From a virus, in IMG/VR virus record IMGVR_UViG_3300001533_001295, positions 1 to 64,000 of that record: a stretch of 64,000 nucleotides of DNA; one strand, 5' to 3'. A model generated the notes under the pieces. It was not told where the DNA came from and did no database searches. It was given only the letters and a program-made list of their open reading frames with translations. Shown one piece after another: positions 34,704 through 36,437 of this stretch (positions are counted from its first letter, which is position 1; every line of letters begins with the position of its first letter). Position numbers and translations under genes: made by a program.

Positions 34704-34742
34704 TGTAAGCCTCTGTAGCTCAGCGGATAGAGCAGCGGCCTT

Positions 34743-35348
34743 TAAGTAGTGGGAGCCTTTATGTGGAAGATCGAGAAGATAGTTAGCAAAGGAGATTACA
34801 ATTACTACGTTGTGCGCAATCATCCAAGCTGTACCAAGCATGGCTATGTATTGCATCATAGAGTAGTAGTGGAAAATCACCTTGGCAGGCTTCTTGATCC
34901 GACTGAAGTTGTGCATCACCTAAACGGTGATAAGAAAGATAATCGTGTAGATAACTTGCGTGTTATGGATGAAGCAGATCACGCAAGAGTTCATGGGTAT
35001 GAACAGGGTGCTCGTTTTGTGGAGCTAAAATGTCCGAGCTGCGGTGTGTTATTTCATCGGCCGCGACGACAAACACATTTAGTAAAACCTACAAAATATG
35101 CTACTTGCTCATCCTCATGTCGAGGAAAGTTCTCACGTGAAATTCAACTTCATGGACTAACACATAAAGTGGAGGAGGCTATATCGGAGAATATCGTAAG
35201 AGAGTACACGAAGTATTCACACGACAACTCCGAGCAAACCATTTAACTATGGGATGCGTAGAGACTACACGCCTCCAGCCTGAAATGGCTAAGATATAGT
35301 CCAGCCAGCAAGCCTTTATCGGTGGTCATGGAAACATGATGCTGGAAG
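34743..35348 (+). mobile_element. Group I intron in tRNA-Arg(UCU), between positions 34 and 35
   Basis: 5' exon ends in U, intron ends in G; P7 elements gtagagactaca and aagatatagtcc; P4 tcggag/ctccga. Confidence 0.88.
34749..35246 (+). CDS. Intron-encoded HNH homing endonuclease (likely start ATG 34761)
   Basis: YVLHHRVVVE...VVHHLNGDKKDNRVDNL, then CPSC...CSSSC zinc finger. Confidence 0.9.
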   Translation: MGAFMWKIEKIVSKGDYNYYVVRNHPSCTKHGYVLHHRVVVENHLGRLLDPTEVVHHLNGDKKDNRVDNLRVMDEADHARVHGYEQGARFVELKCPSCGVLFHRPRRQTHLVKPTKYATCSSSCRGKFSREIQLHGLTHKVEEAISENIVREYTKYSHDNSEQTI

Positions 35349-35418
35349 CTAAGCCGTCGGTCGGGGGTTCGAATCCCTCCAGAGGTATTTTCAGTAGTAT
35401 TGCAAAGGAGTGAAAAAT

Positions 35419-35538: not shown

Positions 35539-35579
35539 CAGTTGGGACCGTAGCTCAAAGGTTAGAGCAGGAAACTCAT

Positions 35580-36356
35580 CAGTGTTGACTCTTGTGTTCT
35601 TGGTTATGGTGTACTTTACTAAGTAACTAAGAACCATCGAAAGAAGTCGGATGTCGAAATCCAAAAGTAAGGTGAGAATGTTGAATGGGTATAGAGTTAT
35701 CTACGACCCAACTCATCCAAAAGCTATGACCAGTGAAAATTGGAACGGATATGTGTACGAACATGTAGCTGTTGCTCAAAATTCACTAGGAAGAAGCTTA
35801 GAAAGTGATGAAGTAGTTCATCACTTAGATGGGAACCGCGAGAACAACAGGTCTTCGAATCTGCTTGTTTTGGAGCGGAGTCAGCATGCAAAACTTCACA
35901 GATGGATGGAGACAAATGGTGCCTTTACATTGAAAGATGTAAATGAGAATGGGGTGAATTCAGGGAAACCTAAATCTATTTCGACATGTAAAGTTTGTGG
36001 AAAAACTCTACAAGCAAAGCAAAAAGGTGCTTGCTCACTTAAATGCAAGCGTATCCTTTCCAGGAAGGTTGAAAGACCGGACAGGCCGACGCTAGAAATC
36101 GACATGCAAAATCTATCAATGGTAGCAATTGGTAGTAAGTATGGAGTTTCAGATAATGCGATCAGGAAGTGGATAAAATCTTACGAAATAGACACGGCAA
36201 TCCTGAGCCAAGCTTCTGGTACACCAGAAGAAGGTGCAGAGACTAGCGGAGAGGTAAAGTCCTCTTAATTACCGCCTAGAGCGCCCCACACCCAAACGAG
36301 TAATGTCGTGGGTGGTGAGATAGTCCAGGGAGAAAATGAAAATTTTCACAAACCAG
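35580..36356 (+). mobile_element. Group I intron (IC3/trnL-like core) in CAU tRNA, between positions 36 and 37
   Basis: aattcagggaaac (P), aatcctgagccaag (Q), ggtgcagagactag (R), gagatagtcc (S); terminal G. Confidence 0.9.
35651..36268 (+). CDS. Intron-encoded HNH homing endonuclease with zinc finger and HTH
   Basis: YVYEHVAVA...VVHHLDGNRENNRSSNL; CKVC..CSLKC; IGSKYGVSDNAIRKW. Confidence 0.9.
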   Translation: MSKSKSKVRMLNGYRVIYDPTHPKAMTSENWNGYVYEHVAVAQNSLGRSLESDEVVHHLDGNRENNRSSNLLVLERSQHAKLHRWMETNGAFTLKDVNENGVNSGKPKSISTCKVCGKTLQAKQKGACSLKCKRILSRKVERPDRPTLEIDMQNLSMVAIGSKYGVSDNAIRKWIKSYEIDTAILSQASGTPEEGAETSGEVKSS

Positions 36357-36437
36357 AATTTCTTGGTTGCGGGTTCGAATCCTGCCGGTCCTATTTTAGT
36401 CATTATCTTAGTTTTAAACTTTAACTAGGTTTATACC

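What the first reader, a model, noticed from the sequence alone, without database searches (positions are those of the whole stretch)
35544..36393. Second intron-split tRNA (CAU, Ile2-like) with a trnL-type core at position 36/37
Seen: exons join as CUCAU|AA. The core strings AATTCAGGGAAAC, AATCCTGAGCCAAG and GGTGCAGAGACT match what I recall of the cyanobacterial/plastid tRNA-Leu(UAA) IC3 intron, yet the host tRNA and insertion site differ. Two neighbouring tRNAs were invaded by dissimilar introns with related HNH domains. Inference: either a homing hotspot, or interruption of the anticodon loop shields precursors from anticodon nucleases or times tRNA supply.
Basis: partly seen in the sequence, partly recalled or inferred. 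Interest (0 to 1): 0.75.

Follow-up and report, generated by a model that had tools for sequence, protein, structure and literature searches.

The report
Phage tRNA-Ile2 intron with threaded endonuclease
A phage gene for the tRNA that reads the AUA codon is interrupted by a self-splicing intron of a type known from bacteria, but here the intron also carries a DNA-cutting enzyme gene whose reading frame runs through the ribozyme's own catalytic core.

Summary
Window 35544-36393 is a tRNA(CAU) gene split after anticodon position 36 (CUCAU|AA) by a 777-nt group I intron, 35580-36356. It scores 68.8 bits on Rfam RF00028 against a cutoff of 50.

The intron is not a new tRNA or site combination. It is the classical Azoarcus-type tRNA-Ile2 intron ("Ile2.5Ug", IC3). 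ORF-less bacterial introns of 204-241 nt at the same site align with its core at 58-67% identity.

What differs:
- The host is a phage.
- Two insertions, 328 nt in L1 and about 200 nt in L5, together encode one 205-aa HNH endonuclease.
- The linker and tail of that protein are the ribozyme strands IGS-P2-P3-P4-P5 and P5'-P7.1 read as codons.

At least 21 other loci carry the same architecture: 18 viral contigs and 3 MAG contigs. Of the 120 best protein homologues, 108 carry the linker signature. In 14 aligned introns, 53 of 78 base pairs show compensatory changes.

The tRNA is Ile2-like: G3-C70, and not the initiator D stem. AUA is the phage's commonest Ile codon.

The most likely reading is a self-splicing, homing intron. 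The anticodon-nuclease shield and timing ideas have no support. Splicing and cleavage were not tested, and no RNA run was listed. Verdict: a new variant of a known kind.

The parts
35544..35579 (+). tRNA exon 1 (tRNA positions 1-36, ends with anticodon CAU)
   Evidence: Sequence. Canonical cloverleaf after joining. U8, A14, G18G19 and D stem GCUC/GAGC read directly from the sequence.
35580..36356 (+). Group I intron, 777 nt, with U(-1) at 35579 and terminal G (omegaG) at 36356
   Evidence: RF00028 at 68.8 bits. Boundaries set by the U-1/omegaG rule and the 7-nt anticodon loop. The same boundaries hold in 14 of 14 family members.
36357..36393 (+). tRNA exon 2 (positions 37-73, A73 discriminator, no encoded CCA)
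35651..36268 (+). HNH homing-endonuclease ORF, 205 aa: HNH_3 domain at residues 36-80, four-Cys zinc ribbon at 113-132, helix-turn-helix-like end to about residue 178, then a read-through tail
   Evidence: ORF. PF13392 at 41.6 bits (cutoff 24.8) and phrog_15471 at E 9e-36. Invariant H57, H58, N66, N70, H79, C113, C116, C128 and C132 in 38 homologues.
35585..35912 (+). Insertion 1 relative to ORF-less bacterial introns. It lies in loop L1 (between the 5' splice site and the guide sequence) and holds the leader hairpin, the start codon and the HNH domain codons.
   Evidence: Alignment A4 and the gap analysis. Third-codon-position conservation is 0.53 against 0.75/0.85 at positions 1/2.
35919..35921 (+). 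Internal guide sequence GUG, pairing with exon CAU 35577-35579 (P1; U35579-G35919 wobble)
   Evidence: GGUG is invariant in 14 of 14 introns and aligns with the GUG that follows a 5-9-nt L1 in the bacterial introns.
35924..35943 (+). P2 hairpin, 8 bp, with a GAAA loop
   Evidence: All 8 pairs show changes on both sides across 14 introns, with 70.5% of cells paired.
35950..35970 (+). 5' strands of P3 (35950-56), J3/4, P4 (35960-65) and P5 (35969-70). These are codons 100-107 (NGVNSGKP), the interdomain linker.
   Evidence: Partners are 36282-88, 36201-06 and 36196-97. Cells paired: P3 98%, P4 100%, P5 100%, with double changes in 3, 2 and 2 pairs. The NSxK linker is present in 108 of the 120 best homologues and absent in the free-standing homologues.
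35981..36186 (+). Insertion 2 relative to bacterial introns. It lies in loop L5 and is closed in this window by the 9-bp helix P5a, 35975-83 with 36184-92. It encodes the zinc ribbon and the DNA-binding end of the protein.
   Evidence: Third-position conservation 0.51. The first 5 pairs of P5a are 81.5% paired across the family; the inner 4 are only 41.8% paired.
36196..36275 (+). 3' strands of P5 and P4, then P6 (36207-09/36233-35), P6a (36213-19/36224-30), the 5' strand of P7 (36239, 36241-45) and the extra hairpin P7.1 (36246-75). The ORF's UAA stop (36266-68) lies in the P7.1 internal loop. This stretch encodes the protein tail, residues 182-205.
   Evidence: P6a has 7 of 7 pairs with double changes and is 100% paired; P7 is 100% paired with 2 pairs covarying. 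Third-position conservation is 0.82, equal to positions 1/2. P7.1, including its UUAAU loop, is also present in the ORF-less bacterial L192 and in the crAss-like phage introns.
36282..36356 (+). 3' strand of P3 (36282-88), P8 (36289-36314), 3' strand of P7 (36321-26), P9.0 (36327-29 with 36353-55), P9 hairpin with a GAAA loop (36332-47), and omegaG at 36356
   Evidence: all 3 P9.0 pairs covary. The minimum-free-energy fold of 36193-36360 recovers P6a, P7.1, P8 and P9, z = -3.61.
34709..35387 (+). Context: neighbouring tRNA-Arg(UCU), split after position 34 by a 606-nt intron with its own HNH ORF (34749-35246)

Best explanation
This is a phage-encoded tRNA-Ile2 gene (anticodon CAU, to be converted to lysidine by the host so that it reads AUA). 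[quoted passage not shown]

Proposed splicing steps:
- The ribozyme pairs the exon end CAU with its guide GUG (P1).
- It folds P2-P9 and binds guanosine in P7, which cuts after U35579.
- It then uses its terminal G36356, positioned by P9.0, to ligate the exons into a 73-nt tRNA.

The intron is also a mobile element. One 205-aa HNH homing endonuclease is encoded across two peripheral loops. The nuclease domain lies in L1, and the zinc-ribbon/HTH DNA-binding part lies in L5. Its interdomain linker and C-terminal tail are the catalytic-core strands read as codons. The enzyme presumably cuts intron-less tRNA-Ile2 genes of co-infecting phages, so that repair copies the intron in.

Shown here: the exon and intron boundaries, the conserved and covarying core, the homology to bacterial Ile2 introns, the dual coding, and purifying selection on the protein parts.

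Inferred, not shown: actual splicing, endonuclease activity and target, lysidine modification, and mutual exclusion of translation and folding on one RNA.
For: - Intron: RF00028 at 68.8 bits against a cutoff of 50.
- Splice sites: joining at U-1/omegaG gives a canonical tRNA(cat) in 14 of 14 family members.
- Structure: on 14 aligned introns my P1-P9 model has 88.2% of cells paired, against 71.7% in shuffles (0 of 500 shuffles reach it) and 35-40% when partners are slid. 53 of 78 pairs change on both sides.
- Bacterial relatives: ORF-less introns of 204-241 nt in tRNA(CAU) at the same site were found in 5 of the 8 loci I examined, from a 401-genome sample. They align with the window's core at 58-67% identity and score 64-65 bits on RF00028.
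- Literature: Ile2.5Ug is a classical IC3 setting (Williams 2020, whole text). Azoarcus pre-tRNA-Ile self-splices and has P2-P9 and P9.0 (PMC13168695, passages).
- HNH protein: Pfam HNH_3 lies above its cutoff and the His/Asn/Cys residues are invariant.
- Dual coding: third codon positions are relaxed in the L1 and L5 parts (0.53, 0.51) but not in the core overlaps (0.78, 0.82).
- Ile2 identity: 3-70 is G-C or A-U in 14 of 14, and 11-24 C-G with 12-23 U-A in 14 of 14. By Silva et al. 2006 (PMC1635315, passages) this indicates Ile and excludes fMet.
- Codon use: AUA is 42% of Ile codons in the phage's ORFs. The other phage tRNAs, Leu-UAA and Arg-UCU, also match its commonest codons.
Against: - There is no RNA evidence; the run search listed nothing usable.
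- P1 is only 3 bp and never varies, so covariation says nothing about it. It must form across a 339-nt loop that is also translated.
- No intron-less allele of this tRNA was found. The exact exon-1 scan of viral contigs gave 0 hits, and 17 loci holding distant homologues of the downstream gene had no tRNA at all. Mobility is therefore inferred from the protein family only.
- The window's tRNA has A4-U69, not the C4-G69 that is frequent in Ile2, and a G1-U72 wobble.
- The Silva rule was derived on cellular genomes, not phages.
- The structure model was derived from the window sequence itself, which inflates the paired percentage relative to the slid controls.
- Helix 7 (the inner part of P5a) is only 41.8% paired in the family, and P2 70.5%.
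- The Shine-Dalgarno sequence before the ATG at 35651 is weak in this window.
Confidence: 0.85

Rival explanations
1. The host gene is an elongator tRNA-Met rather than tRNA-Ile2. The intron and endonuclease are as described.
For: ARAGORN labels every CAT tRNA as Met. The window tRNA lacks C4-G69. Silva et al. say that telling Met from Ile needs profile proximity rather than single determinants.
Against: G3-C70 (or A3-U70) in 14 of 14 family members is given by Silva et al. as a complete negative discriminator for Met and fMet. The bacterial homologues at this site have G3-C70, C4-G69 and C5-G68. The phage uses AUA for 42% of Ile codons, and its other tRNAs decode its commonest A-ending codons. 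The known intron lineage at this site is in tRNA-Ile.
Confidence: 0.1
2. The intron is kept for a benefit to the phage. Either the split precursor is not a substrate for host anticodon nucleases, or the need to fold a ribozyme that ribosomes are reading delays the supply of the AUA (and AGA) decoders.
For: Two of the five tRNA genes on this 84.8-kb record are intron-split, and both decode the phage's commonest codons for their amino acid. The ORF threads the core, so translation and folding should compete on one RNA. tRNA-cleaving defences, and phage tRNAs that counter them, are documented (search listing only).
Against: No call bears on it directly. The same core sits without an ORF in bacterial chromosomal tRNA-Ile2 genes. 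Mature spliced tRNA would be as cleavable as any other. An HNH gene under purifying selection is what a selfish homing element predicts.
Confidence: 0.07
3. The gene is a dead tRNA: the intron no longer splices and the exons are a relic.
For: The L1 loop is very long, P1 is 3 bp, and there is no RNA evidence.
Against: Every core element is intact in the window: the U-G wobble, omegaG, the bulged-A P7, and the GAAA loops in L2 and L9. Compensatory changes across 14 diverged copies show continuing selection on the fold. The exons are canonical in 14 of 14.
Confidence: 0.04

Closest known systems
[quoted passage not shown]
   Same: - Same host tRNA type and same insertion point, after anticodon position 36.
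- Same helices P1-P9 and P9.0.
- GNRA loops on P2 and P9.
- The intron ends ...CACAAACCAG|AA exactly as in the bacterial homologue L196.
- Unnamed bacterial introns of this type (L192, L196, L199, L200, L202) align with the window's core at 58-67% identity.
- That the Azoarcus guide sequence is GUG pairing with CAU is my recollection and comes from no call.
   Different: - The Azoarcus intron is 205 nt and has no ORF. The window's intron is 777 nt.
- The window's intron has a 328-nt insertion in L1 and a roughly 200-nt insertion in L5 that together encode an HNH endonuclease.
- It has an extra hairpin, P7.1, shared with bacterial L192 but not with the 204-214-nt forms.
- It sits in a phage.
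   Different: It is inserted after position 34 of tRNA-Leu and is normally ORF-less. It was not compared by sequence here.
tRNA-fMet intron of Synechocystis with endonuclease I-Ssp6803I (Bonocora & Shub 2001; seen only as a reference-list entry)
   Same: A bacterial tRNA(CAU) anticodon-loop group I intron that carries a homing endonuclease aimed at the anticodon region.
   Different: It is in the initiator tRNA, at a different loop position (fMet.2Ug), and has a different nuclease family (PD-(D/E)XK, recalled). I did not see the paper's text.
Phage group I introns with HNH or GIY-YIG genes (T4 td/nrdB/sunY, SPO1 and Bastille DNA polymerase introns) and free-standing SegB in the T4 tRNA cluster
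   Same: Phage-borne self-splicing introns with homing endonucleases. SegB is a homing endonuclease acting on a phage tRNA gene region (abstract).
   Different: These introns interrupt protein genes. The 2014 review states that all phage introns seen to that date were in protein-coding genes despite many phage tRNA genes (PMC3984707, passage). Their ORFs usually sit in one loop.
Free-standing HNH genes of phiKZ-like and other phages (e.g. PHIKZ296)
   Same: 36-49% identical over the HNH, zinc-ribbon and HTH parts, and located next to tRNA genes.
   Different: They have no group I core around them (no RF00028 match at E <= 0.01 in L210 or L211). They have no NSGK linker and no read-through tail.

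Membership tests
Group I intron (Rfam RF00028) | Covariance-model score at or above the curated cutoff | tested here: met
   68.8 bits against 50, E 2.4e-15 in 64 kb
Group I intron (Rfam RF00028) | U at -1 in a U-G wobble in P1, and G as the last intron base | tested here: met
   U35579-G35919 and G36356. Both are invariant in 14 of 14 introns. Because they never vary, the P1 partner rests on homology with the bacterial introns.
Group I intron (Rfam RF00028) | P3-P9 core, including the P3/P7 pseudoknot, supported by compensatory changes | tested here: met
   53 of 78 pairs have double changes. 88.2% of cells are paired, against 71.7% shuffled and 35-40% slid.
Group I intron (Rfam RF00028) | Self-splicing with guanosine and Mg2+ | not testable with these tools
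   Needs a bench assay. No RNA run was listed.
IC3 / Azoarcus-type tRNA-Ile intron | Inserted between positions 36 and 37 of tRNA(CAU) of the Ile2 type | tested here: met
   This setting is named Ile2.5Ug and listed as IC3.
IC3 / Azoarcus-type tRNA-Ile intron | Sequence homology of the core with ORF-less bacterial introns at that site | tested here: met
   58-67% identity over 200-237 aligned columns.
IC3 / Azoarcus-type tRNA-Ile intron | Compact architecture: no P5abc, and GNRA loops on P2 and P9 (this feature list is recalled) | tested here: met
   GAAA loops at 35932-35 and 36338-41. L5 carries an ORF insertion instead of P5abc.
IC3 / Azoarcus-type tRNA-Ile intron | Assignment by subgroup-specific covariance models (GISSD or the 2025 database) | not tested
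tRNA-Ile2 (CAU, lysidine) | 3-70 not C-G (G3/A3 with C70/U70), as against Met and fMet | tested here: met
   G3-C70 in the window. 14 of 14 in the family have G-C or A-U. Rule from PMC1635315.
tRNA-Ile2 (CAU, lysidine) | Not an initiator: lacks A11-U24 and G12-C23 | tested here: met
   C11-G24 and U12-A23 in 14 of 14.
tRNA-Ile2 (CAU, lysidine) | C4-G69 and C5-G68 (frequent, not universal) | tested here: inconclusive
   The window has A4-U69 and C5-G68.
tRNA-Ile2 (CAU, lysidine) | Isotype-model score, and C34-to-lysidine modification | not testable with these tools
   tRNAscan-SE is not installed, and the modification needs biochemistry.
HNH homing endonuclease (Pfam PF13392 HNH_3) | Domain match above the cutoff with conserved His-Asn-His residues | tested here: met
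   41.6 bits against 24.8. H57, H58, N66, N70 and H79 are invariant in 38 sequences.
HNH homing endonuclease (Pfam PF13392 HNH_3) | Cuts the intron-less allele, and intron-plus and intron-minus alleles coexist | tested here: inconclusive
   No intron-less allele was found. Cleavage is not testable here.

The most novel reading that the evidence does not exclude
The threaded arrangement is more than parasitism. The ribozyme's 5' core is the endonuclease's interdomain linker, and its 3' core is the protein's tail, so a ribosome on the ORF must unfold the ribozyme. Supply of the phage's AUA decoder (and, next door, its AGA decoder) would then be gated by translation of the intron ORF. That would give the phage a built-in timer, or a precursor form that anticodon nucleases cannot recognise. 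This would be the founding example of group I introns in phage tRNA genes acting as regulators.
Probability: 0.08. Interest if true: 0.8.

Novelty: new variant of a known kind. Interest (0 to 1): 0.5.

Why it matters
A 2014 review stated that every phage group I intron known then was in a protein gene, despite the many phage tRNA genes. Here one phage carries two intron-split tRNAs, and at least 18 other viral contigs (many of 170-395 kb) carry the same tRNA-Ile2 intron.

The best-studied small ribozyme lineage (Azoarcus type) therefore circulates in large phages in a mobile, endonuclease-bearing form. Standard tRNA finders miss or mislabel these genes, so phage tRNA inventories and codon-supply analyses undercount them.

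The family is also a clean natural case of dual coding. About 120 nt of catalytic core are read as protein linker and tail. There are more than 100 diverged copies, ORF-less bacterial relatives and free-standing protein relatives for comparison. This makes it a good system for studying how a homing endonuclease gene becomes embedded in a ribozyme and how translation and RNA folding are reconciled.

Tried and rejected
**ARAGORN's Leu(caa) call for the unspliced gene.** Rejected: the junction lies inside the P9 loop, the -1 base is C, and the variable arm is unpaired.

**Two other candidate guide sequences.**
- GGUGAG at 35671-76 would give a 5-bp P1 with CUCAU.
- AUGAG at 35945-49 would also pair with the exon end.
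- Neither is conserved. An R-UGAG motif occurs at various places in only some of the 14 introns, whereas GGUG at 35918-21 is invariant. Both remain possible alternative or competing pairings.

**Close relatives of the phage.**
- Megablast of 20 kb against curated phages gave no match.
- An exact 30-nt exon-1 scan of viral contigs gave 0 hits.
- A single-protein scan of viral contigs gave only distant HNH hits.
- The downstream 212-aa ORF gave 17 distant loci with 0 tRNA genes. No synteny was found, and so no intron-less allele.

**Other searches with no result.**
- A profile of 38 homologues against PDB sequences gave 0 matches at E <= 0.01.
- Cluster look-up of 9 homologues returned no informative names or accessions.
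- Sequencing runs: no RNA holder was listed.

**Literature.** Seven full-text searches and passages from the papers named above turned up no report of a group I intron in a phage tRNA gene. That is a statement about those searches only. Supplementary tables, for example those of the jumbo-phage, crAss-like-phage and intron-database papers, were closed and could hold such cases.

**P10 and P1-extension pairing.** By eye, 35585-91 can pair with 35908-14 in 6 of 7 positions, closing L1. I did not test this comparatively. I saw no convincing P10.
Full report
**Setting.** The window is the first 64 kb of an 84,772-base linear IMG/VR virus record that CheckV rates 42% complete. Genes run almost entirely on the + strand. 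They include a large RNA-polymerase-like protein and ribonucleotide reductase subunits. The record has five tRNA genes: Asn-GUU, Leu-UAA, Arg-UCU, the CAU tRNA studied here, and Thr-UGU.

**The observation.** Exon 1 (35544-35579) ends CUCAU. The intron (35580-36356) ends in G. Exon 2 (36357-36393) begins AAUUUCU. Joined by coordinates, the exons make a 73-nt cloverleaf with a 7-nt loop CUCAUAA, which ARAGORN accepts as tRNA(cat).

Rfam's group I model matches 35894-36348 at 68.8 bits, with a cutoff of 50. ARAGORN's own intron mode proposes Leu(caa) instead. That splice breaks the group I rules and cuts the P9 hairpin, so I set it aside. Williams (2020) describes the same kind of ARAGORN miscall.

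**A family, not a singleton.** The intron ORF (35651-36268, 205 aa) has a Pfam HNH_3 domain. It has 332 homologues at E <= 0.001 among 372 candidates in the large protein collection. The best 120 are all 49-100% identical and about 175-250 aa long.

A profile of 38 of these homologues fetched 80 loci each from genome and viral contigs. By an ordered four-motif test, 3 of the 80 genome loci and 18 of the 80 viral loci carry the same ribozyme core over the ORF. The three genome loci are MAG contigs labelled Saccharibacteria, Aquaspirillum and Nomurabacteria. All 21 have an upstream tRNA half ending CTCAT and a T arm downstream. L102 is a 22nd case seen by eye. Many of the viral contigs are 170-395 kb long.

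In the 14 non-redundant copies I analysed, the intron is 704-782 nt and the spliced product is always a canonical tRNA(cat).

**The ribozyme.** I derived helices from the window sequence, guided by the Rfam alignment. I then counted them on a MAFFT alignment of the 14 introns.
- 88.2% of cells are paired, against 71.7% in column shuffles (0 of 500 shuffles reach it) and 35-40% when partners are slid by 1-3 columns.
- 53 of 78 pairs change on both sides.
- P3, P4, P5, P6, P6a and P7 are 98-100% paired and contain compensatory pairs. Examples are P7 U-A to C-G in two copies, and all 7 pairs of P6a.
- All three pairs of P9.0, which positions the terminal G, covary.
- P2 and P9 carry GAAA loops.
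- P1 (CAU with GUG 35919-21) never varies, so its assignment rests on homology (see the next section).
- Weak spots are the inner part of P5a (41.8% paired) and P2 (70.5%), where the alignment is probably out of register.

The model comes from one of the aligned sequences, which favours it over the slid controls. The number of double changes is the stronger argument.

**What it is related to.** A BLAST of the 3' half and exon 2 against 401 genomes of the order that holds the Aquaspirillum-labelled MAG hit 18 genomes. I examined 8 of the loci.
- Five are tRNA(CAU) genes split at the same place by ORF-less introns of 204-241 nt: L192, L196, L199, L200 and L202.
- L201 shows the same exon end, although ARAGORN mislabels it.
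- L194 is a similar intron in tRNA-Asp.
- L192, L196, L194 and L201 reach 60.8-65.1 bits on RF00028.

Aligned with the window, the five CAU introns match its core at 58-67% identity. They show that the phage intron differs by exactly two insertions: 35585-35912 in L1 and 35981-36186 in L5. Their guide GUG follows the splice site by 5-9 nt and aligns with the window's invariant GUG.

The extra hairpin P7.1 is shared with L192 and with about 250-nt introns of crAss-like phages.

This is the setting that Williams calls Ile2.5Ug. It is one of four classical bacterial tRNA intron types, all listed as IC3. The Azoarcus pre-tRNA-Ile intron (205 nt, P2-P9 and P9.0, efficient self-splicing) is its model member.

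**Which tRNA.** Silva et al. (2006) give two rules. G3/A3 with C70/U70 is a complete negative discriminator for Met and fMet, and so indicates Ile. A11-U24 with G12-C23 marks the initiator. The window has G3-C70, C11-G24, U12-A23, C5-G68 and A73. The family has G-C (12 copies) or A-U (2 copies) at 3-70, and the non-initiator D stem in 14 of 14.

In the phage's ORFs of 150 aa or more, AUA is the commonest Ile codon (42%), AGA the commonest Arg codon (33%) and UUA the commonest Leu codon (37%). These match its Arg-UCU and Leu-UAA tRNAs and an AUA-reading Ile2. The counts cover 59 ORFs and 20,432 codons on both strands, so some ORFs may be spurious.

Ile2 is therefore the better reading. No isotype model could be run, and the rule comes from cellular genomes.

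**The threaded ORF.** The HNH domain (residues 36-80) lies in the L1 insertion. The four-Cys ribbon and HTH-like end (residues 113-178) lie in the L5 insertion. Between them, codons 90-107 are the guide sequence, P2 and the 5' strands of P3, P4 and P5. Codons 182-205 are the 3' strands of P5 and P4 followed by P6, P7 and P7.1. The stop codon is a UAA in the conserved P7.1 internal loop.

Column conservation at codon positions 1/2/3:

| Region | Position 1 | Position 2 | Position 3 |
|---|---|---|---|
| HNH part (L1) | 0.75 | 0.85 | 0.53 |
| L5 part | 0.69 | 0.76 | 0.51 |
| 5' core overlap | 0.72 | 0.80 | 0.78 |
| 3' core overlap | 0.82 | 0.85 | 0.82 |

The loop parts evolve as protein and the overlaps evolve as RNA. 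The protein-level motifs that result are N-S-x-K in the linker and ..G-A-E-T.. in the tail. They occur in 108 and 79 of the 120 best homologues respectively. Most of the 41 homologues without the tail motif end near ...YGLL, which matches the UGA stop in the 3' strand of P5 seen in L014, L103, L104 and L109. The tail therefore looks dispensable.

Free-standing homologues, 38-49% identical, sit among tRNA genes in L110, L111, L113, L114, L116 and L117. A phiKZ-like Pseudomonas phage (BRkr, with a gene like PHIKZ296) is another example. These keep both protein domains but lack the NSGK linker and the tail, and no group I core surrounds them.

ORFs that extend into core sequences are a known arrangement, and are said to need tight control of expression (PMC3984707, passages). 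A single ORF split over two loops and bridged by the catalytic core is an unusual degree of it. In-frame mitochondrial intron ORFs that read through 5' core strands are a precedent that I recall and did not check.

**Mechanism and rivals.** The most likely account is an ordinary self-splicing, homing intron (confidence 0.85). The steps are listed under Best explanation. Splicing, cleavage and lysidine formation are inferred. Rivals are elongator Met identity (0.10), an adaptive shield or timer (0.07) and a dead gene (0.04). Nothing supports the shield or timer beyond the arrangement itself.

**Novelty.** The intron lineage, site and host tRNA are known. Williams also noted bacterial tRNA introns above about 400 bp that may hold genes. 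In the seven full-text searches I ran, I did not find any of the following in print:
- group I introns in phage tRNA genes; a 2014 review says none had been seen;
- this HNH-bearing Ile2 intron family;
- its two-loop threaded coding.

I rate the finding a new variant of a known kind, with interest 0.5.

Noticed in passing
L001 2330-2640 and 3130-3150; L002 2390-2655 (crAss-like phages cr55_1 and cr4_1): Group I introns of about 250 nt from the same subfamily (same P7.1 hairpin; RF00028 58.7 and 74.9 bits). They appear to interrupt a T loop, not an anticodon loop. In L001 the upstream flank reads like GGACGAGGGTTCGAT and the downstream flank like TCCCTCCAGCTCCA, which resembles a tmRNA or tRNA-like 3' end. 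An HNH gene lies on the opposite strand inside the interrupted region. None of this is annotated in the records.
   Followed up: partly
L211 (phage phiKZ NC_004629.1, record ~268.8-269.7 kb): A tRNA 5' half precedes the annotated 87-nt tRNA-Asn and the HNH gene PHIKZ296. It has acceptor TCCGTGA, a normal D arm and a loop starting CUGUU. A matching 3' half follows them, with a T arm and acceptor TCACGGA plus GCCA. No group I core was detected (E <= 0.01). This looks like a tRNA gene disrupted by, or split around, a cassette of a second tRNA-Asn plus a homing endonuclease.
   Followed up: partly
L102 2340-2635; L117 895-1224 and 1436-2101; L140 1175-1980: Other phage tRNA arrays hold further group I introns. 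ARAGORN finds them in tRNA-Leu(UAA) (212 and 240 nt, ORF-less) and in tRNA-Phe (571 and 720 nt). RF00028 matches of 59-82 bits lie inside three of these four genes; none was reported for the 571-nt L117 tRNA-Phe intron. L102 has the Ile2 and Leu introns side by side. Rfam at gathering threshold did not report L102's ORF-bearing Ile2 intron.
   Followed up: partly
L194 1322-1651 (unnamed bacterial genome G218): An intron of the same core type sits in a tRNA-Asp(GUC) gene after CUGUC, which would put C rather than U at -1.
   Followed up: no
window 34709-35387: The neighbouring tRNA-Arg(UCU) intron (606 nt, after position 34) scores only 30.4 bits on RF00028. Its HNH ORF (34749-35246) also overlaps the matched core region (35135-35322).
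   Followed up: partly
window 35597-35607 with 35627-35637: An 11-bp hairpin (GUUCUUGGUUA / UAACUAAGAAC) lies in the intron leader just upstream of the ORF start. Relatives instead have GAACC/GGUUC repeats that could pair with the Shine-Dalgarno region. This may be control of endonuclease translation.
   Followed up: no
window 35671-35676 and 35945-35949: Two extra stretches, GGUGAG and AUGAG, are complementary to the exon end CUCAU. They could form alternative pairings that compete with P1.
   Followed up: partly
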